From the IMG/VR virus record IMGVR_UViG_3300037834_000041, positions 1,609 to 65,608 of that record: a DNA stretch of 64,000 nt. One strand, given 5' to 3'. Origin of the DNA: a virus. The position numbers were made by a program, and so were the translations under genes. Under the pieces are notes generated by a model, which was not told the DNA's origin, searched no databases, and saw only the letters and a list, made by a program, of their open reading frames with translations. This document shows positions 1,124 to 21,613 of this stretch, piece by piece. Each line of letters begins with the position of its first letter. The first letter of the stretch is position 1.

Positions 1124-1687
1124 ATGCCGCGCTTTTACGAGAACGAGTCGGAGGCGGTGCTGTACGCTTTGGACGAGATGGGTAGCCAAGAGCGGGCGCT
1201 CGTTGAGCGGCTCTTCGAGGCGTTCTCGAAGCACCCGCGGCCCGCCGACTGTGTCCCGCTCGTTCCGCCCGTTCCGTTCGATCCGAAGCGCCCCATCGTC
1301 AAGCCGTCTCGCTACGACCAATGGGCGTTGAAGTGGGAGCGGACGATCGCGCGCGACAGAAAACGGGAACGGTGGCGTCGTGTGTGGTGGAACCCGTTGC
1401 GAGATGAGGTCATCCGCTTCCTCCATGACAACGGACACCCGTTCTACGAGGGAAGGCCGCAACAGTGGCTCGAAGACGCGTGGGAGAACGACGCGATCAA
1501 CGTTAACGAAGGCAGGATGTTCATCATCTGGGACATCCTGGTCCACATCCAGGAATGGATCGACACCTTCGTCGGTGACAAGGAGGTCTACCCGGAGTTC
1601 TGGCCGCTTCCCGTGGTGGAACTGAGTATCAGCGAGGCAGAGGGACGCTACTGGGCTGTAGGAATCGCCGCGGGACGAGTCGTCTGA
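1124..1687 (+). CDS. Hypothetical protein (187 aa)
   Basis: ORF with globular, Trp-rich composition and host-like codon usage. Confidence 0.55.
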   Translation: MPRFYENESEAVLYALDEMGSQERALVERLFEAFSKHPRPADCVPLVPPVPFDPKRPIVKPSRYDQWALKWERTIARDRKRERWRRVWWNPLRDEVIRFLHDNGHPFYEGRPQQWLEDAWENDAINVNEGRMFIIWDILVHIQEWIDTFVGDKEVYPEFWPLPVVELSISEAEGRYWAVGIAAGRVV

Positions 1688-1790
1688 TGGAGAACGGTTG
1701 GTTACCGCCGGGTTCAGGACGCCACCGCCCTGAACCCGGCTTCGGATTTTTTCTGAGCACGCACGCGACACCGACTTACCGCTTCGGTTT

Positions 1791-3146
1791 TCAATTCGAA
1801 CGGCGCACACGCCTCTGCCGGTCGGCCCGCTGCCGGAATGATTCTTCGTCATATGCAATTCTCTTGTAAATCGACGATCTGCCGTCAAACACGCCGGAGA
1901 GGTCCGCGACGCAGCACCGATCGAACGGCATCCCGAGTATCGTCGTGACGGCTTCGATCAGTTCCTCACGAGTGACCGAAGAGGGCGATAACTCCGCAAG
2001 CCGGATGTCACAGGCGGCGGTGTAGAGGTTCGGCTCGGAGCGGAACTGGGCGGCGTAGTGGTGCCGGGCGAGGCGAATGTCATCGAGTTGTTTCCGCCGC
2101 AGTCCAGACTTGGTAGACATGCCCGCAAGGCGGCGGGAATGTGAGTAGTGGCTTGCGAGGTAGTAGTACGCGTGCGTCCGGTCGTTCGTACCGCTCAAGA
2201 GTTCCTTTGCCCTCGACAGGTCATTTTGGGCATCGTTCGTTCTTGATTCCAGATTGCTACAGAGTTTGAGCCGAGCGCCGAGAACGATCTGGCGCACCGA
2301 GAAGCCGTCCTCTCTACCGCGGACCCCGAATAGGTAATCAGCCCTCGCGCGGACGTGCTTCAGGAGGCTGAGTTCGATCTTCTCGTCGTCGAAAGCGTCC
2401 GACGGCTGGTGCCACGTCACACCGCTCACGGCTCGTCGCGCCGAAGCATCCACGGGCGAAGAGTGCCCGAGCAGACCGAGGAGCACCGCTGTCTTGCCGC
2501 TCTCGTCCGCCCGGCCCAGCGCTCGCTTCCCAATCGTGTGAACCGCCTTCATGTTCACAGGCGATTCCGTCCCCGCCAGATGCGCGGCCTCAAGCCAAGC
2601 GTGGGCGAGGCTCGCGACGCGGAGCCGCTGTTTGTCGCTACTCCCGCGATCGAGGTGCCCTGCTAGGTCGTGCAGCAGCCGGCGTGCGCGCGTGAGTGAT
2701 TCGCAGATTCCCCACCCGTCTCCCGGAACGACGTAGTAATTTCGAGCCAAGCCGCGCGTCAGGGTTTCGAGATGCTCGTCCACTCGCGAATGGAGTTCGT
2801 CGGCCTCGTGCCGGAGAATGAAGTAGTCGGGTTTGAGCTTGGGCAGCACTTCAGCGATCTCAAGCTGGCTCTCGTGCCCCCGAGCGAGGGCAAGGAACAT
2901 TTCGCACAGGTCTCTCCGCGTGTCCTCGGCTACCCGCTTGTCGGTCCGGAATAACTTTGTCACGGTGTGCGGGCTCTTCAACCGCCCGCCGCGGCGCTTC
3001 CAGTGTGTGATCGCCTCTTGAAGCCCAGATTTGTTCGGGGCGTAGTCAAACCTACGCAGTAGGTCGAGGAGCCGCTCCAAGTGAAGTGGTGCCCGCTCCC
3101 CTTGAACGATAGATCGCCTGCTCTTCGACTGCTGGCTCGCGGTCAT
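1791..3146 (-). CDS. Hypothetical protein, possible N-terminal HTH-like domain plus alpha-helical (TPR-like) repeats
   Basis: Long ORF; likely start MTASQQ at 3146; Ala/Leu-rich helical pattern. Confidence 0.5.
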   Translation of the reverse strand: MTASQQSKSRRSIVQGERAPLHLERLLDLLRRFDYAPNKSGLQEAITHWKRRGGRLKSPHTVTKLFRTDKRVAEDTRRDLCEMFLALARGHESQLEIAEVLPKLKPDYFILRHEADELHSRVDEHLETLTRGLARNYYVVPGDGWGICESLTRARRLLHDLAGHLDRGSSDKQRLRVASLAHAWLEAAHLAGTESPVNMKAVHTIGKRALGRADESGKTAVLLGLLGHSSPVDASARRAVSGVTWHQPSDAFDDEKIELSLLKHVRARADYLFGVRGREDGFSVRQIVLGARLKLCSNLESRTNDAQNDLSRAKELLSGTNDRTHAYYYLASHYSHSRRLAGMSTKSGLRRKQLDDIRLARHHYAAQFRSEPNLYTAACDIRLAELSPSSVTREELIEAVTTILGMPFDRCCVADLSGVFDGRSSIYKRIAYDEESFRQRADRQRRVRRSN

Positions 3147-3452
3147 GGCGTGCCACTCCGGTAAGTCACCTGGTCGGTCAGCCCATCCTACCCGCGCCCT
3201 CAACGCGAATGAAGCGTCAGCGCCGAGTCCGCGCATGTCCGCGCAACGCCGAAAACAGCCATTTACTTGAACTGCGCCCGCGTTGGGACAATGCTGACCT
3301 CGTGGCCGGCGATTCTCCCGCCACTCAATGAACTCCGCCCGATCCGCGTAGGGCTACCCAGCAAGGTGGCTCTCGACTCGCGATCGCGCCAACCGGCGTG
3401 TCGGGGCGTCCACGCGCCTATCGGCCGCGAGACCCCTTCAAGGAGGCAACGC

Positions 3453-3995
3453 ATGTGCTCGTCGAACCGTTCCGATCCAGACCTCGTCGCCTGGCTCCGC
3501 TACCTGGACCGATGGACGTGGCAGAACCGGGCGGTCGTCGTCCCGATCGCCCTCGCCGGACTCGCCGCGGCGGCCGTCGGCCTCGTCGCCCACTTCTTCG
3601 GGCCGACCGACCTCGAGCGGGCCGAATCGGACCTTCGCAAAGCCGGGGCCGTCGTAAACGCGATCGAAGCCGAAGCCCCTCGGCAATTGAAGGACTGGCG
3701 AGAGCACCGCCAGGAGGCCGCCCATTACCGGAAGCTCGCGGACGAGAACAAGGACAGTTCCGACGTCGAGTTTCTGGAGTGGCATCTAGCGACAGCCCGA
3801 GGCCACTCCCGGCTCGCGGGCGCAGCGTCCGACCGGCGCGATCACCTCCTTCGCCTCGCCGCGGAGTACCGACGACTTCTCGCCGAGGCACAGTGCGAAA
3901 TTCTGGAGGCAAAGGAAGCGCGAGAGCGGGGGATGCCTTACGAAGTTGCCCCGCGCGTTCGTGAACTCCTGAAACCCATCCTCACCAACCACTGA
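3453..3995 (+). CDS. Membrane-anchored coiled-coil protein (180 aa)
   Basis: AGGAGG RBS at 3441-3446; TM segment AVVVPIALAGLAAAAVGLVAHFF followed by coiled coil. Confidence 0.6.
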   Translation: MCSSNRSDPDLVAWLRYLDRWTWQNRAVVVPIALAGLAAAAVGLVAHFFGPTDLERAESDLRKAGAVVNAIEAEAPRQLKDWREHRQEAAHYRKLADENKDSSDVEFLEWHLATARGHSRLAGAASDRRDHLLRLAAEYRRLLAEAQCEILEAKEARERGMPYEVAPRVRELLKPILTNH

Positions 3996-4009
3996 CTCCG
4001 GAGGTCTCG

Positions 4010-4306
4010 ATGAACTGGCTCTGGGCCTACTTCCGCCGAAAGACCTTTGAAGCGATCCAAGCCGGTGTTCACGACGCCCTCGTGTCCGGAGCTAACCCCT
4101 CCGGCATGACCAACGAGCAAGCCACGCTCGCGCTCCTCGCTCTCGCCCGCACGCTCGACCCGACCGCAGTGGCAGGAACCGGAGAGCTGAGTCCACCGAC
4201 ACCACCGCAACTTACCGGCCCGACGCCGAGCGGCACCGGAGAGGCGACAGACCAGGTCAGGAGAGGCCCAGGCCGTCCGAGAAAGCACCAGGAGCCACCG
4301 CAATGA
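4010..4306 (+). CDS. Hypothetical protein (98 aa) with an AT-hook-like RRGPGRPRK tail
   Basis: GGAGG RBS upstream; stop overlaps the next start. Confidence 0.55.
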   Translation: MNWLWAYFRRKTFEAIQAGVHDALVSGANPSGMTNEQATLALLALARTLDPTAVAGTGELSPPTPPQLTGPTPSGTGEATDQVRRGPGRPRKHQEPPQ

Positions 4307-4497
4307 ACAACAAGATTTCTCTCACCGCCCGTGATCGCGAGATCGTTCCCGCGCTCCTGCACAAAGTGCCTGCTCATTCAGAGTCAGTCCTCGCGCTTTG
4401 GTGGCCGGATACTGACGACCCGATCACCTCCGCTGACGACACGCCCGCTGCACGCGAGCTCGCAGCTCCGAACTCTCCCGGAGCACTTCCAGATTAA
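4303..4497 (+). pseudogene. Truncated, diverged duplicate of the 5' end of the downstream replication-relaxation gene
   Basis: CCAGGAGCCACCGCAATGAA is identical at 4288-4307 and 4520-4539. Peptide SLTARDREIVPALLHKVPAHSESVLALWWPDTD parallels SITDRDRAILLAVLHKVPILSEAALALWWQDTD. Confidence 0.75.
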
Positions 4498-4534
4498 GTC
4501 GGGCGCGGCCCGGCAAATTCCAGGAGCCACCGCA

Positions 4535-5218
4535 ATGAAGAGATCGTTCTCCATCACCGACCGCGACCGCGCGATCCTCCTCGCGGTTCTGCACAAGGTC
4601 CCCATTCTCTCGGAGGCAGCCCTCGCGCTGTGGTGGCAGGACACGGACTCCAGCCGCGACAACATGAGCCGCCGCCTCTGGCAACTCCGCGAGGCAGGTC
4701 TTCTCGCCCGCTACTCACTGCCGGTCCAAGCAGCACCGCGAGTCGAACTGTTCTACCACTGGGTTCCCGGGATGCCGGAGCCTGACTTCGGTGCGCTCGC
4801 GTGGCAACTGTCTCGACGGTGGCAGTCGCTCGAAACGCGCCGAACGGTCTTCTACACCGCGACGGCAACTGCCGCGAACCGCTACGGGCGAACTGTTCAG
4901 AACCCACTCCGATCGACCTCGGCAATTCCTCACGCGATCTTGCTCGGGCAACTTTTTGCCCAACTCCATCACACGGCTCCGACACTCGCGAGCGGTTGGG
5001 TTGCGGAAGAGGTTGTCGCCGATTCCCGCGGGTACGGGCAGAAGGTAGTTGACTGCCTGATAGTCGATTCCTCTTCAACGCCCGCCCTAGCTCTTGAAAT
5101 CGCAGGCGCATCCTACGCCGCCTCGAATGGCGAGCGCCTCCGCGAGATTCACAAAGATTGCTCAGAACGTGGCTTGCCTTACGAGATGTGGACCGTTCCT
5201 GAAGGGGGTGGGAAATGA
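4535..5218 (+). CDS. Replication-relaxation family-like protein (wHTH plus PD-(D/E)XK-type fold)
   Basis: N-terminal ITDRDRAILLAV...RRLWQLREAGLL; IPHAILLGQLF; KVVDCLIV...ALEIAG. Confidence 0.6.
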   Translation: MKRSFSITDRDRAILLAVLHKVPILSEAALALWWQDTDSSRDNMSRRLWQLREAGLLARYSLPVQAAPRVELFYHWVPGMPEPDFGALAWQLSRRWQSLETRRTVFYTATATAANRYGRTVQNPLRSTSAIPHAILLGQLFAQLHHTAPTLASGWVAEEVVADSRGYGQKVVDCLIVDSSSTPALALEIAGASYAASNGERLREIHKDCSERGLPYEMWTVPEGGGK

Positions 5219-5916
5219 CCGCCGCAGACGAGTACACGAACCTGTCCGAACACGCGCAGCTTGCGGCTGACCATGTCTGCCGACACTGGCTCGCGACGCC
5301 TGACGTTGTGCGCCGGGTAATCTGCCCAACTCTTTCTCTCGACGCAGCACGAAAGTTCCTCGCGCGACTCGTCGAGCGGGGCTGGCTCGTCAGGCACGTG
5401 CTTCCCGAGGGCGAACCGTACTTCGTTCTGGGGAGCAAGGCTGTAGCGGCCTTCGGACTCCGCCGGTCCACTCGGGCGCTCGGCATACAAGCTCTTCTCG
5501 AACACTACGCGGTCCTACTCGCCTGCACGCGGCGGGGGTGCGGGGTCATTACCGAGGACGAGTTCCGCGCCGAGTTCCCGGACCTCTGCGAGCCGGGCCA
5601 GTCGGTGAAGAACTTCTTCGTTGACGAGACTGTCGTGCCGTTCCGCCTGGGTCTCTTCGTCGTCGATCACGACAAGCGGAGCTCCCGCCTCGTCCAGAAA
5701 GTCCGCCAGCGCATCGGCCGGATGATGGATACGGACCGACCCGCTCTCCGCCAGCTCGTTCTAAACGGCGGCCTGTCGGTCTCTGTGCTCACCGCCACCG
5801 AGGGCAAACGTGCGAACCTGGCTGCCGCGTTCGCCCGGAAGCCCCTCCGGTCCGTCGCCGTGACCGTCGAGGCCCACCCCGAACTCGAATCACTCTTCCT
5901 CGTGAACCGGAGGTAA
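5215..5916 (+). CDS. Second replication-relaxation-like protein
   Basis: wHTH motif AARKFLARLVERGWL and EHYAVL; translationally coupled to the upstream gene. Confidence 0.5.
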   Translation: MTAADEYTNLSEHAQLAADHVCRHWLATPDVVRRVICPTLSLDAARKFLARLVERGWLVRHVLPEGEPYFVLGSKAVAAFGLRRSTRALGIQALLEHYAVLLACTRRGCGVITEDEFRAEFPDLCEPGQSVKNFFVDETVVPFRLGLFVVDHDKRSSRLVQKVRQRIGRMMDTDRPALRQLVLNGGLSVSVLTATEGKRANLAAAFARKPLRSVAVTVEAHPELESLFLVNRR

Positions 5917-5921
5917 GCTCC

Positions 5922-7406
5922 ATGGCCCGAGAATGGTCTGCCCGCAAGAAGACGCATCTCGTCAAAGACGCAATCAACCCGTCTGCCTTCCGTGCCGCCT
6001 ATGCGCTCTGGCGGGAAGGCCTCGCGCTGCCCGACGCGAGAATGCTGGTGCTCCGGCTGCTCGTCGCCTACACGCTGATCTTCCTCCCGTTACAGGTCGG
6101 GGTGTACTTCCTCGCGGCCCGCTCGCTTGTTCTCGCCGCCCTGCTCACACTCGCTCTCGCGGCCGCCCTCACCGCAGTCGCCGTAGCAAAGCGGCTCGGC
6201 CTCGAAGAGCTTCTCCAGAAACTCCCGCTTCTCCTCGTCTTGGTGCTGGTCGGAGCCGGCCTCCTCTACCTCGCCGGCGATTCACCCTGGAAGAGGGACG
6301 CGGTCGGCTTCGAGTTCTTCGGCACGTTCTTCATCGTCATCGCCGTGGTCTCCGTCTTGGGGAACCTCTACCAACCGCTCGCCGCCGCCTACCAGACTCT
6401 CACCCTGAAAATTCCGGTCCGGGACCTCGCCCTCGCGGCCGCGGGGCTCCTCGTTGCACTCGCACTGGTCGCGGTGAGCCAGGTGCTTGATCGGTCAGCA
6501 GCCGTCGTTCTCGCCTTCACGCTCGCGGGCGGTTACGCCGCCCTCGTCGTCGCCGAGCACGTGGCCTGGATGCGGGCGAACCCGGCCCGGGGCCTGGACG
6601 AGGACACGCCGGATGCGACGAAACCGGAAAGCGACAGGCACCGCGTCCGCGTGCTCGCAAGCGGCCTCGTGACTGGGTTTTCCTACGGGCTCTTTGTCGT
6701 TCTCGTCATTTGGCCGCCACAGCGGGCACCGTGGACCGATCCCTCGGCGCTCTCAGGAGGGCTCCTCGACGGCACCGCCGTCGTTCGGCTCTGGTGTGTG
6801 GTGTTCTTCTCTCTCGGCCTGTTCGGCATGAACGCCACACTGGGTTCGCTCCGCTTGCCACGCCAGAAGGGCGTGTCTTACCGGCTCCCCTGGGACGCTC
6901 TGGTCGTGTTCCTGACCTACCCCAACACGACGCACCCGCTCTCTTACCGGATCGGCGCGAAGTGGTTGAGGCCGCTGGGGGTGAGGCTCGCTCTTACCGG
7001 CCTCGTGCTCTCGACCTCGACGACCGCCCTCCTGGTTTCCGTCAGGAAGCCCGACGGCGCGGCACACTCTCCCAAAGCAGTCGCCGTCGCACCGCCAGCG
7101 CATGGGGTGAGCTACCCACGTCCGCTCTCCGCCCCAGATAGGCTCTCACCGTACGAGAGATGGCACTCCGATCGTGACAGCGTCCCAGCCGTTTCAGCCG
7201 CGAACCCCGGCCCGGAGCGGGTCCAGCCGCCCGCAGAGGTAGAGTCCGGCTCCTCGTCCGCCGGGGCCTTCGTCGTCTGTGTTTTGATCCTTCTTCTGTT
7301 CCCGCCCTCACTCGTCTACGCGATGGTCTTCACGCTCGGGATGTTGGCGCTCCCGCGCTACCACCACCGCTACGAGGCTCTCCCCAGCAGCGAACCGGCC
7401 AAGTGA
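5922..7406 (+). CDS. Polytopic membrane protein (494 aa)
   Basis: Many hydrophobic segments; lies directly upstream of the coupling-protein-like ATPase. Confidence 0.65.
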   Translation: MAREWSARKKTHLVKDAINPSAFRAAYALWREGLALPDARMLVLRLLVAYTLIFLPLQVGVYFLAARSLVLAALLTLALAAALTAVAVAKRLGLEELLQKLPLLLVLVLVGAGLLYLAGDSPWKRDAVGFEFFGTFFIVIAVVSVLGNLYQPLAAAYQTLTLKIPVRDLALAAAGLLVALALVAVSQVLDRSAAVVLAFTLAGGYAALVVAEHVAWMRANPARGLDEDTPDATKPESDRHRVRVLASGLVTGFSYGLFVVLVIWPPQRAPWTDPSALSGGLLDGTAVVRLWCVVFFSLGLFGMNATLGSLRLPRQKGVSYRLPWDALVVFLTYPNTTHPLSYRIGAKWLRPLGVRLALTGLVLSTSTTALLVSVRKPDGAAHSPKAVAVAPPAHGVSYPRPLSAPDRLSPYERWHSDRDSVPAVSAANPGPERVQPPAEVESGSSSAGAFVVCVLILLLFPPSLVYAMVFTLGMLALPRYHHRYEALPSSEPAK

Positions 7407-7471
7407 CATCGCCCGCGCCAAGCTTGTTCTCTGTTTCCTGCTTCACTCACAACCTCTTCAAGGAGCCCGAC

Positions 7472-9136
7472 ATGACCAGTAGAGAAATCGAAGCGGCCCT
7501 GGCAATCCACCCCGAACGCCTCCGAGCCATCCTGCATCAACTCCACGACGGTGGCCGCCCGCCGACGCCGTGGGACGTAAAGGTCGAGCGGCTGTTAAAC
7601 GGCCTCCGTGACCCGCACCTCTACATCGGCAGGACGGTCCGCGACGGCATCCCATGGCTGCTAGCTCTGGAACTGCTCGCGTCGCACGGCCACATAATCG
7701 GCGGCAGCGGGACGGGGAAGACAGCGCTCTGTCTCACGCCGCTCGCCCTTCAACTCATCGCCCGGGGTGATGCGTCGGTCGTAGTCCTTGATGCCAAGGG
7801 AGACCGCTCCCTTTTCTGGAGTTCATTCATCGAGGCCGCACGAACCGGGCTTCCGTTTCGATGGTTCACCATCGAGCCGGGGTGCGCGAGCTTCTCCTTC
7901 AATCCGCTCACCCAGACCTATGACCAGGATCGCACCTTGAATGCGAGCGCGCAGAGCGAGCTTGCATCATTGAGTCTCGATCACGGCGACGAGTACGGTG
8001 CAAGCTGGTACACGGCTGGACATCTCGAAATCATAACCGCCTTTTTCGAGAGGTTCCCTGACATCCGCTCTTACGCCGACTTCTTGCGGTACGCCGAAGA
8101 GCCTGGCAGTTACATCGCTACGAACACCGACATGGATAGCGCGCGGCACCTCCGAATGGTGCTGCGGCAACTCGCCGCGATAGCGCCGCTCAACATCAGC
8201 GAGTCATCCCGGCCGGCCGCGCGTCCGGAAGTTCTACGGAACGGGATCGATCTCGCTGATGTCGTCACCAGGAAACAGGTGGTTTACTTCAATCTGCCTT
8301 CGTTGGAGGAGAGGATCACGGCGAAGAGCGTGATGAGGCACGCCATGTTCGGCGTGGTGCAGGCGGCCAAGACGGTCAGTCGTACTCGCAAACTGGTACC
8401 GGTCTACCTGATCGTTGACGAGGCCCAGCAGGTGCTCAGCCAGCACACCAAGATCCTCCTCGAAATGGCCCGATCGATGGGCGTGCACCTGATCCTCTCC
8501 CACCAATCTGTCGATCAACTCCGGACCGCACACTGGGACATCGCGAGCGTCGTCGAAGGTTCGACCACGTTCAAGCTGAACTTCGAGGCGAGCTCGCTTG
8601 CGGCACTACAGAGCATGATCGCGTACGGCGGCGAGGAGCGCGTGCCGACTCTCTCCTACACACAACGGCTCCACCCCGGATTCAAGGAAAACGACGACGA
8701 CGCCTTCTCACCACGCCTGGCTCACCCGCGGGGCGAGTTCGAGCCGCCGCTCGCTACGGTCGGAGAAACGTATCGGCCCGTGCTGACGGCGCAACAGATT
8801 CTCGCCGTCAGCGCCCACCCGCTCCGGGCGTTTGCTCGCTCCCGCAGTGACGGCGGCCTCACCCAGTATGCCGGGAAGTGGGTCGAAATCGAGTGCGAAT
8901 TCCCGATCACCAAAGACGAGTACAACCAGCGCAACGAGACGCCGATCCCAGCGGAACACCCACTCTGCATCACGGTGGAGTCTGGTCGTAAAGTCCCACG
9001 GCACGCCCCACTCACGAACAAGCCACTTCCTGTTCAGTCACCGCCTCCCTCAGTGGACCAGGCCATCGCCGCGCGCCTGAAGGCACTTCGTAACTCGATC
9101 CGCGGGAAGCCCTCTGATCCACTCGCGGAGGAGTGA
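7472..9136 (+). CDS. Type IV secretion coupling protein-like ATPase (TraD/VirD4/TrwB family)
   Basis: Walker A HIIGGSGTGKT, VVLDAKGD, Walker B YLIVDEAQ, ILSHQS; AGGAG RBS at 7461-7465. Confidence 0.8.
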   Translation: MTSREIEAALAIHPERLRAILHQLHDGGRPPTPWDVKVERLLNGLRDPHLYIGRTVRDGIPWLLALELLASHGHIIGGSGTGKTALCLTPLALQLIARGDASVVVLDAKGDRSLFWSSFIEAARTGLPFRWFTIEPGCASFSFNPLTQTYDQDRTLNASAQSELASLSLDHGDEYGASWYTAGHLEIITAFFERFPDIRSYADFLRYAEEPGSYIATNTDMDSARHLRMVLRQLAAIAPLNISESSRPAARPEVLRNGIDLADVVTRKQVVYFNLPSLEERITAKSVMRHAMFGVVQAAKTVSRTRKLVPVYLIVDEAQQVLSQHTKILLEMARSMGVHLILSHQSVDQLRTAHWDIASVVEGSTTFKLNFEASSLAALQSMIAYGGEERVPTLSYTQRLHPGFKENDDDAFSPRLAHPRGEFEPPLATVGETYRPVLTAQQILAVSAHPLRAFARSRSDGGLTQYAGKWVEIECEFPITKDEYNQRNETPIPAEHPLCITVESGRKVPRHAPLTNKPLPVQSPPPSVDQAIAARLKALRNSIRGKPSDPLAEE

Positions 9137-9411
9137 CCTTGCCGCTTGCGAGTGAAGTCACGACCTGGGAAGAGCGAGACGCCTCAAGGACTGGCGGCAA
9201 CGAATCACCACGGTTCCGGTCTCGGGTGCGAACGAACGCCGAGCCGGAACGCTTCAAGCAGCGACTTGAGAAGCTCGGCCTCTTCGCGCTCGTGGAGAGC
9301 ATCGAGCGGTATGAGACGAACTGGCACTGGAGCGGGACCGGGCAGGGCTATGAGATCCTCTGGCGGGACGGGACGACCTTCGCCGACCTCCTCCCTCTGG
9401 CCCGACTGTGA
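9133..9411 (+). CDS. Hypothetical protein (92 aa)
   Basis: GTG start overlaps the ATPase stop codon. Confidence 0.4.
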   Translation: MTLPLASEVTTWEERDASRTGGNESPRFRSRVRTNAEPERFKQRLEKLGLFALVESIERYETNWHWSGTGQGYEILWRDGTTFADLLPLARL

Positions 9412-9524
9412 GCCGGAGGCGGAGTTCCGCTTCCTTCCGCCTGTGGAACCTTAAGCCGATCCCAACGTAACTTCTTTCCACGCAGCAACACGGCCGCCAG
9501 CGGCGGAGAGAGTGGGCGACAGCT

Positions 9525-9821
9525 ATGACCCCGCCGAACGACGAACTACTCGTCCGGTTACAGAAGATCGAGACGCTCCTTTCTGCGCTCGTTGAGCAGC
9601 GCACGGTAAAGGAGTGGTACTCGACTGCGGAGCTAGCAACACTTCTCGGACGGGCCGAGTTCACCGTCAGGGAGTGGTGCCGACTCGGCCGCGTCCGGGC
9701 CGAGAAGAAAAAGTGCGGTCGGGGGCCTGCGAGTGAGTGGATCGTCAGCCACGAGGAACTCACTCGCGTGCGGAACGAGGGGCTTCTTCCGGACGCCCGT
9801 TCACCCCGCCCGCTCACGTAA
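9525..9821 (+). CDS. Helix-turn-helix (HTH_17/excisionase-like) protein
   Basis: KEWYSTAELATLLGRAEFTVREWCRLGRVRA pattern. Confidence 0.75.
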   Translation: MTPPNDELLVRLQKIETLLSALVEQRTVKEWYSTAELATLLGRAEFTVREWCRLGRVRAEKKKCGRGPASEWIVSHEELTRVRNEGLLPDARSPRPLT

Positions 9822-9996
9822 GCTCCCACTGGTCTTGTACTTCATTTCGCCCGACACACCTCTTTCCCTCTGAAAAAAATCGCTTCGCTACCGACATCGA
9901 CTTCGCAGCGTCGGAAGTGCGATACTAGGACTGAATGCGTAGACGAACTGGCCGTTATGGCCACCGCGGCGAGAGACTGCGGAGTCACCGCACTGC

Positions 9997-10305
9997 GTGA
10001 GGGAGGATCCCCTTCGACACCGACCAAAGGCTGCCCCGCGCGACTACGAGCCCCTCAACTATGCAAGTCACCGCCCCGCCCGTGGGGGCGCGCAGTACAC
10101 GCGGTATCAGCGTGGGGGTAAGGACGACTTGCTCCGCATCCGCGAAAAGGCCGACACGCAACGCGTCGTACTCAGCGTGTTCCTCGTTCAGCCCGGCGCG
10201 TCAAAGAGCCAGATGACTTCCGAGCAACTCGAACTTCTCGCCGTCACCGAGAACTACTTGATGGAAACCTTCTGCGTTCCCTTCGGCGTCATCACGAGCC
10301 CGTGA
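9997..10305 (+). CDS. Hypothetical protein (102 aa)
   Basis: ORF with plausible composition; no motif. Confidence 0.4.
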   Translation: MREDPLRHRPKAAPRDYEPLNYASHRPARGGAQYTRYQRGGKDDLLRIREKADTQRVVLSVFLVQPGASKSQMTSEQLELLAVTENYLMETFCVPFGVITSP

Positions 10306-14312: not shown

Positions 14313-14358
14313 GTACACCCGGAGGGATTCGAACCCCCAACCCTCGGTTCCGAAGACC
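14313..14358 (-). repeat. Prophage attachment site: displaced 3' half of tRNA-Arg(UCG)
   Basis: Minus strand reads GGT-CT-TCG-GA-ACCGAG-GGTT-GGGGG-TTCGAAT-CCCTC-CGGGTGT-A: anticodon loop, T-arm and 3' acceptor strand, with no 5' half. It lies 52 bp from the integrase stop. Confidence 0.85.
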
Positions 14359-14410: not shown

Positions 14411-15796
14411 TCATGACTTTTGGCACGTATTCATCGCGTTCAACGGTCGCGGTACACCCTCCGGAACACCCTGACCGGTCAAGGTCTTGATGATCTCGAC
14501 GCAGAGGCGGAGGTTGTTTTCCAGTTCCTCTCGGCTTAGTGTTCGCAGTTCGTCCCCAGCCCCGCCGTCGCCAATGAGCGGGAGCTTGCCCACCGATTCG
14601 GCCAGTTGTCCTTCCCCCACATGGGTGTAGACCGCGAGCGTCAGGGTCGGGTCCGAGTGGCGGGCCAACAACTGAAGCTCCTTCACGCCGATCTTCGCGG
14701 CCGCGAGGCACGAGACGAACGTGTGCCGCAGGGCGTGGAAGTCGAGGCACTTGACGCCCTCGGCCGTCTGCACCTTGTACGCGACGCCGGCGGCCCGGAG
14801 GTCGGCCCGCAGCATCTTCACCGGCTGAAACCGCCACGTCCCCGGCCAAAGCGGACCGTCCTCCTTCCCGGCGAGGTACTCCCGGAACTGTTGGGCGACG
14901 TTGGGCGGTATCGGCTGCCGGACCAACTTTCGGTTCTTCTTCCGCGGGTCGCCGGGCAGGACGACCACCGGGGGCCGGTCGTCGATCGCTAGGTGGCACT
15001 TCGAGAGCCGCGCCAGTTCCGACGCCCGGAACCCGGTTGAGAAGCCGAGCAGGTAGACGTGGTATCGGTCCGCCCCGCTCAGGCCCCGCCACTCCTCCTT
15101 CGAGTTGCGGGCCGCCAGCAACAGGGCCGCCAGCTCCGCCGGCGTCCCGACCCGCCGGAGGTGGACGCGGTTGGCCTTCGGGTCGAAGCCCACCACGTCA
15201 TCGAACAGGTCGGCGCGGACCGGGAGCCGCTTCCGGACTGAGAGCCACCACACGAACCGCTTCGCGGCCTTCCGGTAGAAGTCGGCGCTCTGGTGGCTGA
15301 ACCCGCCGTCCTTCCGGGGCAGCGAGACCCGTTCCAGGAGCCACCGGGCCAGGGCCTTCGGCGCGGCCGCGTTGAGGTTCGAGCAGGTGACGAACTTGCA
15401 TGCGTCCAGCATCGTGCGGACGCGCTGCAGGTTCAGGTCAACTTGTTCGGGCGACGGGAGCCGGGACTTGCCCCGCACCTTGCTGCCCAGACCGACGGCC
15501 ATGTCCTCGCCGAACTCCGGCAGCAGCGCGGCGAGTTGCTTCGCCCCGCCGTTCCGCTCGGGAAGGTCGTGGATGCCCCGTTCCGCGTCGGACACCATCT
15601 TCGCCAACATCGCCTCGGCCACCCGCCGGTCGGCCGACAGCGGGAACCCCTTCTTCGGCGGGAAGCCGGGGACGCCGCGGCCGTACCATTTCCGGGTCTT
15701 GACGTTGAACTTCCGCGCCCCCGGCGCGGCCTTGTCGCACCGGCGGCCGGCCGCGTCCCGGTAAATCGTCTTCGTGATCTTGATGAGCGACGGCAT
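14411..15796 (-). CDS. int: Tyrosine recombinase (prophage integrase)
   Basis: Catalytic motifs STGFRASEL, KKNRK, DFHALRHTF, ARHSD, AVYTH; adjacent to the tRNA fragment. Confidence 0.93.
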   Translation of the reverse strand: MPSLIKITKTIYRDAAGRRCDKAAPGARKFNVKTRKWYGRGVPGFPPKKGFPLSADRRVAEAMLAKMVSDAERGIHDLPERNGGAKQLAALLPEFGEDMAVGLGSKVRGKSRLPSPEQVDLNLQRVRTMLDACKFVTCSNLNAAAPKALARWLLERVSLPRKDGGFSHQSADFYRKAAKRFVWWLSVRKRLPVRADLFDDVVGFDPKANRVHLRRVGTPAELAALLLAARNSKEEWRGLSGADRYHVYLLGFSTGFRASELARLSKCHLAIDDRPPVVVLPGDPRKKNRKLVRQPIPPNVAQQFREYLAGKEDGPLWPGTWRFQPVKMLRADLRAAGVAYKVQTAEGVKCLDFHALRHTFVSCLAAAKIGVKELQLLARHSDPTLTLAVYTHVGEGQLAESVGKLPLIGDGGAGDELRTLSREELENNLRLCVEIIKTLTGQGVPEGVPRPLNAMNTCQKS

Positions 15797-18060: not shown

Positions 18061-18185
18061 ACGGCTTGGCCTGGTGCGGCCGGACCTGGCTCGGCGGGGT
18101 GTGGCAGGGCGCGGCGGGGTATGGCAGGGCGTGGCTGGGTGTGGCTCGGCGCGGCTTGGCCTGGCCGGTCGAGGCGCGGCAAGGC
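18061..18185 (+). ncRNA. NN-GGY pentamer array 1 (25 units), candidate non-contiguous guide RNA (vrRNA-like)
   Basis: Strict 5-nt period; 23 of 25 units end in GGC or GGT (exceptions GAC at 18083 and GTC at 18168); NN is variable; intergenic and abuts the RBS of the RAMP-like gene. Confidence 0.8.
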
Positions 18186-18205
18186 TTTTCCACAAAGGAG
18201 TATGT

Positions 18206-18838
18206 ATGAGCAGCAAGACGACGGCGAGAAGCGGCGCGGCCAAGTCGCGGGCCGAAAAAGGCACGCGGGGCATCGTGACTCGGTCCGTGTCGATCGATGG
18301 CATCACCGACGTGATGTTCGACCGGTACCCCGGCGACAACCAAACGGTACTGGAAGCATGGCAAAAGCTCTATTTCGACCCGGCGAACGATCGACACCTC
18401 GTGTTGCCTTCGCAGAATCTCATGTCGTTTCTATCGGCCCAGAACACGGATTCCGCGCCGAAGCGACTCCTGGACGCGAGGACGTACAAGAAGACAGCCC
18501 TGGCGTGCCTGTCGTTCGTGACCATCGGGCCGGCGTACATCCCGTTCCTCCGGGACGGTAAGCCCGTGGCGTTCGGCCGGTTCGAGGGCGACCGCGACCC
18601 GGAATCCGGCGTCTATATCCATCGCAGCGTAGCGCGGCTGGAGAAGGGGATCCCGAACCCGAAGGTCCGGCCGGTGCTGCCGCTGCCGTGGTCGCTGGCG
18701 TTCACCATCACGATCTACCCGAACCCGCACCTGCAAGAACAGCAGCTCATCAACATCTTCGAGGGCGGCGGGATCGCCCTCGGCATCGGGACCTTCCGCG
18801 GGCAGTTCGGCAAGTTCCGAGTTGCATCGTGGGAATGA
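18206..18838 (+). CDS. Stand-alone RAMP/Cas7-like protein (210 aa), candidate Vipr-type RNA-guided effector
   Basis: AAGGAG RBS; beta1 VSIDGITDVMFD, LVLPSQNLMSFL, extended hairpin HRSVARLEKGIPNPKVRP, WSLAFTITI, and C-terminal Gly-rich loop GGGIALGIGTFRGQFGKFRV; flanked by two GGY arrays. Confidence 0.75.
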   Translation: MSSKTTARSGAAKSRAEKGTRGIVTRSVSIDGITDVMFDRYPGDNQTVLEAWQKLYFDPANDRHLVLPSQNLMSFLSAQNTDSAPKRLLDARTYKKTALACLSFVTIGPAYIPFLRDGKPVAFGRFEGDRDPESGVYIHRSVARLEKGIPNPKVRPVLPLPWSLAFTITIYPNPHLQEQQLINIFEGGGIALGIGTFRGQFGKFRVASWE

Positions 18839-18841
18839 TGC

Positions 18842-18946
18842 AGGGCGCGTCGCGGCTCGGTACGGCGTGGCCGGGTAGGGCGGGGCACGGCCCGGCATGG
18901 CGAGGCCGCGCATGGCGCGGCAAGGCGATGCATGGCGTGGCGAGGC
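18842..18946 (+). ncRNA. NN-GGY pentamer array 2 (21 units), candidate guide RNA
   Basis: Starts 4 nt after the RAMP-like stop; 18 of 21 units are GGY (exceptions GTC at 18849, CGC at 18909, TGC at 18929); followed by hairpin TCCTT-ATTTC-AGGGA. Confidence 0.8.
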
Positions 18947-18978
18947 TCCTTATTTCAGGGACCAATACGAGGTTGCAG

Positions 18979-19194
18979 ATGATTAAGACCTACGCGCACC
19001 ACGCCCCCTCAGCATACGGCTTGGAAGCGATCCGCTGTATCCGAGAAGCCTTCTCGGAACTGCATGAGAAGATCGAAGCCGCTTGCCCGGCCTCGCGCGA
19101 GCGGAGTGTCGCACTCACGGAGTTGGAAACCTCCGCGATGTGGGCGATCAAGAGCATTGTTCTGAACGACCCGGATTCCGAGATCACGAAGTAG
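18979..19194 (+). CDS. Acb2/Tad1-like hairpin-domain protein, putative immune second-messenger sponge (71 aa)
   Basis: GAGG RBS; YAHHAPS...CPASRERSVALTELETSAMWAIKSI resembles the SRE-x-S-x-A-x-T-x-LE-x-A-x-MW motif of the Acb2/Tad1 superfamily. Confidence 0.65.
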   Translation: MIKTYAHHAPSAYGLEAIRCIREAFSELHEKIEAACPASRERSVALTELETSAMWAIKSIVLNDPDSEITK

Positions 19195-19201
19195 TTCAGC
19201 T

Positions 19202-19273
19202 TGCGGGGTGGAGAAGAGGTATCTCGCCAGGCTCATAACCTGGAGGTCGCCGGTTCGACCCCGGCCCCCGCAA
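19202..19273 (+). tRNA. tRNA-Met(CAU), initiator-like; CCA not encoded
   Basis: Acceptor TGCGGGG/CCCCGCA, D-stem GAGA/TCTC (A11:U24), anticodon arm CCAGG-CTCATAA-CCTGG, T-arm GCCGG-TTCGACC-CCGGC. Confidence 0.93.
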
Positions 19274-19304
19274 CTTCCCGCGCATCGCGGGGATCAAGAG
19301 GTGA

Positions 19305-20296: not shown

Positions 20297-20908
20297 ATGG
20301 AAGGTTTCGCATACGTCCTTCGCTCGTGCCCGGCGAGCATGGTCGCACAGAACAATTTCAAGTGGCCTGAAAGCGGCCGGGCCGAGTGCCCGGACTGGAA
20401 CCCGAAGCCCGAATGCGGGAACGGTCTGCACGGTCTACTTTGGGGTATCGGCGACTGGTCTCTCTCCCATCTCTCCGATCCGACCGCGAAATGGCTCGTC
20501 GTCGAGGTGAAGATGGCCGAAGTCGTTGATCTCGTGGACAAGGTCAAGTTCCCGTCCGGCAACGTCGTCTACTGCGGCGGGTTGCCGGGCGCGCAGTCTT
20601 TGATTGCAGAAAAGCGTCTGCTTCATTTGGCATCGACCGCGGGCGAACAGGCTCCGGCATCGACCACGGGCTACAAGGCTCCGGCATCGACCACGGGCGA
20701 ACATTCGGTGGCCTGCTGTCTCAAACAACACGCAGTCGCGAAGTGTGGTCCGAACGGCTCCATCATTCTGTCTTGCTGGGACGGCACGCGACTTCGGCAT
20801 GTCGTCGCTTACGCGGGCGAGAACGGTATTGAGCCTGGCGTTTGGTACGAGTTGTCCCAATCAGGGCAGGTCGTTAAGGCTGCGGACCAAAACCCTTTGT
20901 CGGATTGA
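20297..20908 (+). CDS. Conserved phage protein (DUF7666-like) with three 9-aa repeats
   Basis: GAGG RBS; CPDWNPKPECGNGLHG...WLVVEV...KVKF motif; ASTxGxxAP repeats (27-bp period, 20630-20702). Confidence 0.65.
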   Translation: MEGFAYVLRSCPASMVAQNNFKWPESGRAECPDWNPKPECGNGLHGLLWGIGDWSLSHLSDPTAKWLVVEVKMAEVVDLVDKVKFPSGNVVYCGGLPGAQSLIAEKRLLHLASTAGEQAPASTTGYKAPASTTGEHSVACCLKQHAVAKCGPNGSIILSCWDGTRLRHVVAYAGENGIEPGVWYELSQSGQVVKAADQNPLSD

Positions 20909-20940
20909 ATCTTGGCTCTGGCGGCGGCCCCCTCGCCGCC

Positions 20941-21007
20941 CCCGACTCCGCCGGGCGGTCGCGCGTAGGAGTGAGCGCGGCGTGGGTTCGACTCCCGCGG
21001 GTCGGGT
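20941..21007 (+). ncRNA. tRNA-like element (degenerate tRNA or tRNA mimic)
   Basis: 8-bp acceptor-like stem CCCGACTC/GGGTCGGG and canonical T-arm GTGGG-TTCGACT-CCCGC. The D-arm is vestigial, and a 7-bp stem carries a 10-nt loop with no canonical anticodon loop. Confidence 0.5.
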
Positions 21008-21034: not shown

Positions 21035-21613
21035 ATGCAGGCTTCCGAATCGGACGTGTTGCTCGAAAACGAGGAGCGGATCCGCCGGCTGGTCGCGTGC
21101 GTGTTGCAAGGGTCCACGCTCAACCACCTGGAATCGTTCGACGACCTGATGCAAGTCGGGCGGATGGGCTGCTTGGAGGCGTGGCGGAAGTACAACCCCG
21201 ACCTCGGCAAGACGTTCTGGAACTACGCGAACCAGCGGGTGTACGGCGCGGTCGTCGATCACCTGGGGACGTGCGGGCTGGTGAAGCGGAAACACAGGCG
21301 GGCGGGCCGTGAACTGCCCGTCGTATTCGCCAAGCTCGCGGACGAGAAGGGCCAGATGGGCCAGTACGAGCCGTCGTACACCGTCGCCCTCGGCGAGGAG
21401 TCGGACTTCGACGAGTTCTTGGGGTTGGCGTTGCTCCGCAGCCTATCGCGGACGGAGCGGGAGATCCTTGCCGATTATTTCGTGGCCGGCCGGCTGATGA
21501 AGGAGATTGGCGCGGCCCGCGGGGTGAGCGAGTCGCGGATTTCGAACATCGTCCAACGTGTGCTGAGGCAGTTGCGAGAGGAGGCCAATGGTGAACCGGC
21601 AAGCGTTTCTTGA
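21035..21613 (+). CDS. Phage-encoded sigma-70 family factor (FliA/WhiG-like)
   Basis: Region 2 DLMQVGRMGCLEAWRKYNPDLGKTFWNYANQRVYGAVVDHL; region 4 LSRTEREIL...MKEIGAARGVSESRISNI. Confidence 0.85.
   Translation: MQASESDVLLENEERIRRLVACVLQGSTLNHLESFDDLMQVGRMGCLEAWRKYNPDLGKTFWNYANQRVYGAVVDHLGTCGLVKRKHRRAGRELPVVFAKLADEKGQMGQYEPSYTVALGEESDFDEFLGLALLRSLSRTEREILADYFVAGRLMKEIGAARGVSESRISNIVQRVLRQLREEANGEPASVS

What the first reader, a model, noticed from the sequence alone, without database searches (positions are those of the whole stretch)
18979..19194. Acb2/Tad1-like sponge gene directly behind the guide array
Seen: 71-aa ORF with CPASRERSVALTELETSAMWAIKSI. Established: Tad1 and Acb2 are small helical phage proteins that sequester Thoeris and CBASS signalling nucleotides and share this hairpin motif. 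Inference: an anti-defence gene co-transcribed with the RAMP system and the tRNA, forming an early conflict island against both host immunity and rival elements. Ligand specificity cannot be read from sequence.
Basis: partly seen in the sequence, partly recalled or inferred. Interest (0 to 1): 0.6.

Follow-up and report, generated by a model that had tools for sequence, protein, structure and literature searches.

The report
Prophage Acb2 immune-signal sponge gene
This small prophage gene is an ordinary member of the known Acb2 family of phage proteins that soak up bacterial immune alarm molecules, and its position next to a guide-RNA (VIPR) system is not repeated in related phages, so it looks like a chance neighbour.

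Summary
The 71-aa ORF at 18979-19194 (+) is real and belongs to the Acb2 sponge family, not Tad1.

Evidence: Pfam PF24729 at E 4.6e-12, above the curated cut-off. The closest solved structure is Acb2 homolog 43 (9PTQ; TM 0.77, Z 8.7). It is 50% identical to Acb2_10, a published, plaque-validated inhibitor of 3'3'-cGAMP CBASS. The known pocket positions are kept: H7/R22 (dinucleotide site), R40/T47 (trinucleotide site) and H8/R22/K58 (the 3'cADPR contacts of Acb2_43).

Best reading: a homo-oligomeric sponge, most likely for CBASS cyclic dinucleotides (about 65%). Thoeris 3'cADPR binding is possible (about 30%, not exclusive).

The gene sits 30 nt after the second GGY-NN array of a VIPR locus and 7 nt before an initiator-like tRNA-Met, in the early region of a probable Gemmataceae prophage. 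Co-transcription is plausible but untested. The 'conflict island' is not conserved: 0 of 81 Vipr loci carry Acb2, 0 of 97 Acb2 loci carry Vipr, and whole-record searches gave 0/19 and 0/37, with working positive controls.

The scan noted a similar protein in another genome. Verdict: new member of a known family, low interest.

The parts
18979..19194 (+). acb2-family gene, 71 aa; predicted beta1-alpha1-alpha2-beta2 helical hairpin; pocket residues H7, H8, R22, R40, T47, K58
18969..18973 (+). Shine-Dalgarno-like GAGGT, 5 nt before the ATG
   Evidence: sequence
18844..18948 (+). Downstream GGY-NN array (vrRNA) of the neighbouring VIPR locus; context only, not conserved next to acb2
18947..18961 (+). 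Small stem-loop closing the array, just upstream of the acb2 ribosome-binding site
   Evidence: in the minimum-energy fold; the region as a whole folds no better than shuffles, z 0.33
18206..18838 (+). Vipr (RAMP/Cas7-like) gene, 210 aa; context only
   Evidence: 1276 homologs; most related viral loci carry GGY-NN arrays; architecture as in bioRxiv 10.64898/2026.04.26.720920
18063..18187 (+). Upstream GGY-NN array of the VIPR locus; context only
19202..19274 (+). tRNA-Met(CAT), initiator-like by A11-U24 and a GCGGGG acceptor arm (my reading); no encoded CCA; 7 nt after the acb2 stop
   Evidence: Rfam RF00005, 64.1 bits

Best explanation
The gene encodes an Acb2-family sponge. The 71-residue helical hairpin self-associates, probably into the hexamer seen in all solved Acb2 proteins. 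The pockets between subunits then trap host immune messengers without cutting them, so CBASS (and possibly type I Thoeris) effectors are not switched on during lytic growth or after induction. The most likely ligands are CBASS cyclic dinucleotides such as 3'3'-cGAMP (about 65%). 3'cADPR is possible (about 30%, not exclusive), and the R40/T47 pair leaves cyclic trinucleotide binding open. It is an independent accessory gene of the prophage early region that happens to lie behind a VIPR array. Shown here: gene, family, fold, residue conservation and lack of conserved linkage. Inferred: hexamer, ligand, expression timing and co-transcription.
For: PF24729 above cut-off. A profile of the family hits 9PTQ Acb2 homolog 43 at E 3.7e-7. 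The AF2 model (pLDDT 93.9) has 9PTQ, T4 Vs.4 and Acb2 8H2X as its top Foldseek rows (TM 0.77, rmsd 2.0; E 0.012, so under Foldseek's 0.001 mark). 9PTQ is first among 48,161 chains in VIA-align (Z 8.7, rmsd 2.1, 67 aligned, 27% identity; the next, unrelated chain has Z 7.3). Loci L105/L106 encode the same sequence as Acb2_10 of Hadary et al. Table S2 (compared by eye), and P0001 is 33/66 = 50% identical to it. Acb2_10 inhibited 3'3'-cGAMP CBASS in plaque assays and did not inhibit Thoeris I, II, IV or Pycsar. By my count 35 of 44 tested Acb2 homologs had validated activity, 29 of them against cGAMP CBASS. R40 and T47 align with JBD67 R82/T89 and CbTad1 R90/T97; they are present in 88/89 and 89/89 relatives, and R22 in 88/89. 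Self-association model (4 copies): score 0.74, best of 3 controls 0.01; that mark was reached by 20 of 30 proteins solved as pairs and 1 of 23 single chains; runs agree in at least 78% of contacts, partner pLDDT at least 70. This may reflect likeness to solved Acb2 structures. Linkage tests were negative with positive controls. CD-NTase (SMODS) hits occur in 14 of 151 genomes of the probable host family.
Against: No binding or phage assay exists for this protein. About 1 in 5 tested Acb2 homologs showed no validated activity. The tyrosine that stacks on cGAMP in PaMx33 Acb2 (Y11) is histidine here (H7), although the tested H7 homologs Acb2_6, _20 and _33 did inhibit cGAMP CBASS (manual alignment). 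The closest solved structure is the Thoeris-specific Acb2_43. A two-helix hairpin gives modest fold scores by itself. The hexamer could not be modelled (4-copy limit), and the host genome is not held, so the actual target system is unknown.
Confidence: 0.85

Rival explanations
1. Same family, but mainly an anti-Thoeris sponge that binds 3'cADPR like Acb2_43, alone or together with cyclic dinucleotides.
For: 9PTQ is the best sequence and fold match. The model has N- and C-terminal beta-strands (residues 7-9 and 68-70), which the authors link to 3'cADPR binding. Acb2_43's contacts H5, K19 and K55 align with H8, R22 and K58. Among tested homologs, H8 together with K58 occurs only in Acb2_3 and Acb2_43, both anti-Thoeris (manual alignment). 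The closest tested homolog, Acb2_10, has F at position 8, so its negative Thoeris result may not carry over. ThsB-type TIR hits occur in 32 of 151 host-family genomes, many probably not Thoeris.
Against: Identity to Acb2_43 is only 26-27%, against 50% to Acb2_10, which did not inhibit Thoeris. H8 alone does not predict Thoeris activity (3 of 12 tested H8 homologs, manual count), and the two-protein pattern is too small a sample.
Confidence: 0.3
2. The gene is a dedicated accessory of the VIPR system (a Vap-like partner), or part of a selected VIPR + sponge + tRNA conflict cassette.
For: It is directly adjacent on the same strand with no terminator-like site in between. VIPR loci often carry one accessory gene.
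Against: 0 of 81 distinct Vipr loci (56 with at least 600 nt downstream) carry an Acb2 hit, and 0 of 97 Acb2 loci (92 with at least 900 nt upstream) carry Vipr. 0 of 19 Vipr virus records have PF24729 and 0 of 37 Acb2 virus records have Vipr (controls). The gene after the array falls into 47 clusters in 53 loci. The described vap1-6 are DNA-binding or DNA-acting proteins. The two VIPR preprints searched do not mention Acb2 or sponges.
Confidence: 0.06
3. An Acb2-fold protein that binds a signal outside the tested panel (for example only cyclic trinucleotides, type III CRISPR cA3, or a host housekeeping nucleotide), or an inactive relic.
For: R40/T47 are almost invariant in this clade. 9 of 44 tested homologs had no validated activity, and trinucleotide-based CBASS was not in that panel. 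Trinucleotide binding also depends on helix geometry, not just these residues.
Against: A clade member at 50% identity is active against cGAMP CBASS. The frame is intact and under purifying selection.
Confidence: 0.12

Closest known systems
Acb2_10 of Hadary et al. 2025 (bioRxiv 10.1101/2025.08.24.671296, Table S2), validated inhibitor of 3'3'-cGAMP CBASS
   Same: 50% identity over 66 residues; nearly identical second helix; basic residue at 22 and the R40/T47/K58 equivalents shared. Close relatives of P0001 (AYHKPS motif) are also in that paper's Table S1 Acb2 set.
   Different: Acb2_10 has Y/F at positions 7/8 where this protein has H/H, and longer N- and C-terminal tails.
Acb2 homolog 43 (PDB 9PTQ), 3'cADPR sponge inhibiting type I Thoeris
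   Same: Closest solved fold (TM 0.77; Z 8.7, rmsd 2.1 over 67 residues); beta1-alpha1-alpha2-beta2 layout; H5/K19/K55 correspond to H8/R22/K58.
   Different: Only 26-27% identity; T4, L6 and V7 are replaced by H7, A9 and P10.
Canonical Acb2 (Pseudomonas phages PaMx33 and JBD67; T4 Vs.4)
   Same: Two-helix hairpin; Y11/K26 spacing kept as H7/R22 (manual, by spacing); R67/T74 kept as R40/T47.
   Different: About 16-18% identity; much shorter hairpin without the long helical extension; His instead of Tyr at the adenine-stacking position.
Tad1 (CbTad1, SBSphiJ7 Tad1)
   Same: Shares the second-helix motif, including R90/T97 (R40/T47 here), and the Pfam family PF24729.
   Different: Tad1 chains are about 123-138 aa; only 21 residues match (E about 0.09), and TM by query is about 0.4.
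VIPR systems (bioRxiv 10.64898/2026.04.26.720920), the upstream neighbour
   Same: Stand-alone RAMP gene flanked by GGY-NN arrays in a provirus.
   Different: The acb2 gene is not one of the described vap1-6 accessory types and is not linked to Vipr in relatives.

Membership tests
Acb2 | Acb2/Tad1 hairpin profile PF24729 above the curated cut-off | tested here: met
   46.4 bits vs 27, E 4.6e-12
Acb2 | Small stand-alone protein with two antiparallel helices matching solved Acb2 structures | tested here: met
   AF2 pLDDT 93.9; 9PTQ top in Foldseek (TM 0.77) and VIA-align (Z 8.7, rmsd 2.1, 67 aligned); profile E 3.7e-7
Acb2 | Falls within the sequence set of experimentally tested Acb2 homologs | tested here: met
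   50% identity to Acb2_10; clade motif present in Table S1
Acb2 | Dinucleotide pocket residues (PaMx33 Y11, K26) | tested here: inconclusive
   R22 conserved in 88/89; position 7 is H here, Y in 64/89 relatives. Mapping is by spacing and by the 9PTQ alignment, not a direct alignment to PaMx33.
Acb2 | Trinucleotide pocket residues (PaMx33 R67, T74) | tested here: met
   R40/T47 align with JBD67 R82/T89 (weak alignment, E 0.11) and CbTad1 R90/T97. The residues alone do not guarantee binding.
Acb2 | Homo-hexamer | tested here: inconclusive
   A 4-copy model supports self-association (0.74 vs best control 0.01; 20/30 solved pairs and 1/23 single chains reach the mark), possibly by likeness to solved structures; a hexamer could not be run
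Acb2 | Sequesters immune nucleotides and blocks CBASS or Thoeris | not testable with these tools
   Needs binding and phage assays; inferred from Acb2_10
Acb2 | Encoded by a phage or prophage | tested here: met
   The record is classed as a provirus; integrase, terminase and portal are in the window
Tad1 | Full-length match to the roughly 120-aa Tad1 protein, including the region N-terminal to the hairpin | tested here: not met
   71 aa; only residues 39-59 match, E 0.08-0.1; TM by query about 0.4 over 41-45 columns
VIPR accessory protein (Vap) | Recurrent genetic linkage with vipr and vrRNA arrays | tested here: not met
   0/81, 0/97, 0/19, 0/37, with positive controls
VIPR accessory protein (Vap) | Predicted DNA-binding or DNA-acting function | tested here: inconclusive
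   No such Pfam or PHROG family was found; the best matches are sponge proteins

The most novel reading that the evidence does not exclude
This Acb2 clade (H8, R22, R40, T47, K58 nearly invariant) is an unusually broad sponge that takes cyclic dinucleotides, cyclic trinucleotides and 3'cADPR. In this prophage its mRNA is cut out of the early transcript by vrRNA processing at the 5' end and tRNA processing at the 3' end, coupling host-immunity suppression to VIPR expression.
Probability: 0.08. Interest if true: 0.45.

Novelty: new member of a known kind. Interest (0 to 1): 0.2.

Why it matters
Modestly. It places an Acb2 sponge in a probable Planctomycete (Gemmataceae) prophage, a host group whose family carries CD-NTase and TIR genes. 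It also shows one phage carrying both an anti-rival system (VIPR) and an anti-host-immunity gene side by side. The H7-H8/K58 form was not among the tested Acb2 homologs and combines features of the anti-CBASS and anti-Thoeris members, so it is a cheap test case for what sets Acb2 ligand choice. It does not define a new system.

Tried and rejected
1) Conserved VIPR-Acb2 cassette: rejected by tblastn, profile and whole-record tests. The records are often fragments, and my own profile may miss distant Acb2 clades, but the Pfam model was also used.
2) Tad1 membership: rejected.
3) Guides aimed at the acb2/tRNA region or the prophage itself under the 1-nt skip rule: best matches were no better than shuffled guides (25/44 vs null mean 25; 18/28 vs 18.3). 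No target was found in any fetched locus.
4) A longer upstream start (GTG, 85 aa) is unlikely, since homologs begin at the same Met.
5) Promoter scan: one weak sigma-70-like site inside vipr, at chance level; no promoter or terminator between vipr and acb2. The scan may not suit this host.
6) Conserved acb2-tRNA pairing: 3 of 93 loci within 500 nt. This is a weak pattern, roughly compatible with chance by my estimate.
7) Automatic alignment with JBD67 Acb2 misplaced the N-terminus, so the H7/R22 mapping rests on spacing and on 9PTQ.
8) The longer 130 kb source contig and the host genome were not available.
10) Searches were input slips and were rerun.

Full report
Observation. The + strand of 18979-19194 gives a 71-residue open frame with the quoted motif. 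A GAGGT motif lies 5 nt before the ATG. The protein has 96 database relatives at 46-75% identity and of similar length, and mismatches against 19 homologous loci concentrate at third codon positions (0.40/0.23/0.64). It is a real, conserved gene.

Setting. The source record is a provirus of 66.7 kb. It has an integrase at 14411-15796 and terminase and portal genes further right. A flanking kinase is 63% identical to one in Limnoglobus roseus, and Gemmataceae genomes also hold homologs of both acb2 and vipr. That points to a Gemmataceae host, but it is an inference. The gene lies in a long run of rightward early-type genes. Immediately upstream is a 210-aa RAMP-like gene (18206-18838) flanked by two GGY-NN arrays (18063-18187 and 18844-18948). 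This is the architecture of VIPR systems (bioRxiv 10.64898/2026.04.26.720920). Seven nt downstream is a tRNA-Met(CAT).

Family. Pfam PF24729 (Acb2/Tad1 hairpin) matches at 46.4 bits against a cut-off of 27. A profile of 89 relatives hits Acb2 homolog 43 (9PTQ) at E 3.7e-7 over most of its length, but Tad1 only over 21 residues at E about 0.09. The AlphaFold2 model (pLDDT 93.9) is a short strand, two helices and a short strand. Its best fold match is 9PTQ in Foldseek (TM 0.77, E 0.012; followed by T4 Vs.4 and Acb2 8H2X) and in VIA-align (Z 8.7, rmsd 2.1, 67 aligned, next chain Z 7.3). Fold scores for a two-helix hairpin are weak alone, but they agree with the sequence evidence. The profile finds 7,323 cluster representatives at E up to 0.001, so the family is large and common. 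A four-copy model supports self-association: 0.74 against a best control of 0.01, a mark reached by 20 of 30 solved pairs and 1 of 23 single chains, with runs agreeing in at least 78% of contacts and pLDDT at least 70. This may come from likeness to solved Acb2 structures. The protein is an Acb2, not a Tad1.

Function and ligand. Hadary et al. (bioRxiv 10.1101/2025.08.24.671296) tested Acb2 homologs against seven systems. By my count of the 44 Acb2 rows in their Table S2, 35 had plaque-validated activity: 29 against 3'3'-cGAMP CBASS and 10 against type I Thoeris. Loci L105 and L106 encode their Acb2_10 (matched by eye), which is 50% identical to this protein. Acb2_10 blocked cGAMP CBASS, gave an unvalidated signal on cUA CBASS, and did not block Thoeris or Pycsar.

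Pocket residues. PaMx33 Acb2 binds dinucleotides with Y11 and K26 and trinucleotides with R67 and T74 (PMC10312549). These correspond to H7, R22, R40 and T47 here. R40 and T47 align with JBD67 Acb2 and with CbTad1 R90/T97; H7 and R22 are placed by spacing. In the clade, R22, R40 and T47 are 88, 88 and 89 of 89, and position 7 is Y in 64 and H in 16. Tested homologs with H at position 7 (Acb2_6, _20, _33) inhibited cGAMP CBASS, by manual alignment. On the other side, Acb2_43 contacts 3'cADPR with H5, K19 and K55, which align with H8, R22 and K58. Acb2_10 lacks that histidine, and the only tested proteins with both H8 and K58 are two anti-Thoeris ones. I put cyclic dinucleotide binding at about 65% and 3'cADPR binding at about 30%, not exclusive. 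Trinucleotide binding is open, because it also depends on helix geometry. Both kinds of target are plausible in the probable host family: SMODS hits in 14 of 151 genomes and ThsB-type TIR hits in 32 of 151, many of the latter probably not Thoeris.

Is it part of an island with VIPR? Co-transcription is plausible from strand and spacing, and no terminator-like site lies between vipr and acb2, but it was not shown. As a conserved unit the idea fails. Profile searches found Acb2 in 0 of 81 distinct Vipr loci and Vipr in 0 of 97 distinct Acb2 loci, and none of 80 Acb2 viral loci had a GGY-NN array within 4 kb. In whole virus records, 0 of 19 Vipr carriers had PF24729 and 0 of 37 Acb2 carriers had Vipr, while positive controls rang 5 of 5 each. 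The gene following the Vipr array falls into 47 clusters among 53 loci. The closest Vipr relative has no PF24729 gene within the fetched flanks, and the closest Acb2 relatives sit among varied phage genes. The decoded guides match neither the acb2 region nor the prophage better than shuffles. A tRNA follows acb2 within 500 nt in 3 of 93 related loci, two of them within about 10 nt, which is only a weak pattern.

Mechanism, step by step. Shown by tools: intact gene, Acb2 family and fold, conserved pocket residues, no conserved link to VIPR. From established knowledge: Acb2 proteins form hexamers and sequester CBASS or Thoeris signals, and can trigger Panoptes. Inferred: this protein does the same early after induction or infection, most likely against CBASS, and is read from the same early transcript as its neighbours.

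Verdict. Observation confirmed; interpretation partly supported. New member of a known family, with an incidental VIPR neighbour. Interest 0.2.

Noticed in passing
window 19202-19274; L061:4217-4304, L137:2545-2629, L012:4356-4430: A tRNA directly follows the acb2 stop here (7 nt) and in two other loci (tRNA-Leu TAA, about 6-8 nt), and lies about 140 nt downstream in a third. tRNA clusters also lie 0.6-1 kb upstream of Acb2_10-like genes in L109, L111 and L112. A weak recurring pairing.
   Followed up: partly
window 19202-19274: The tRNA-Met(CAT) looks initiator-like (A11-U24, GCGGGG acceptor arm, two of three anticodon-stem G-C pairs, U1:A72) and has no encoded CCA.
   Followed up: partly
window about 14326-14358 (- strand): 3' half of a tRNA-Arg(TCG)-like sequence next to the integrase, probably the attachment-site remnant; no second copy in the 66.7 kb record.
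   Followed up: partly
window 20911-21007: ARAGORN calls a tRNA-Gly(TCC) here, but Rfam finds no tRNA at its gathering score; an atypical tRNA-like element just before a sigma-factor gene (21035-21613).
   Followed up: no
window 9525-9821 and 1124-10305: Genes left of the host-like kinase, including an excisionase-like ORF, look like a second mobile element rather than host housekeeping genes (impression from translations only).
   Followed up: no
window 20297-20908: DUF7666 protein with three 27-nt internal repeats.
   Followed up: no
L149:6001-6228: An Acb2 homolog lies antisense between a terminase gene and a portal gene, with the terminase and portal each called as two pieces.
   Followed up: no
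L089:5688-6338 (also L204): A second, very divergent Vipr-like ORF (22% identity) with its own GGY-NN arrays lies 1.2 kb downstream of the first Vipr gene.
   Followed up: no
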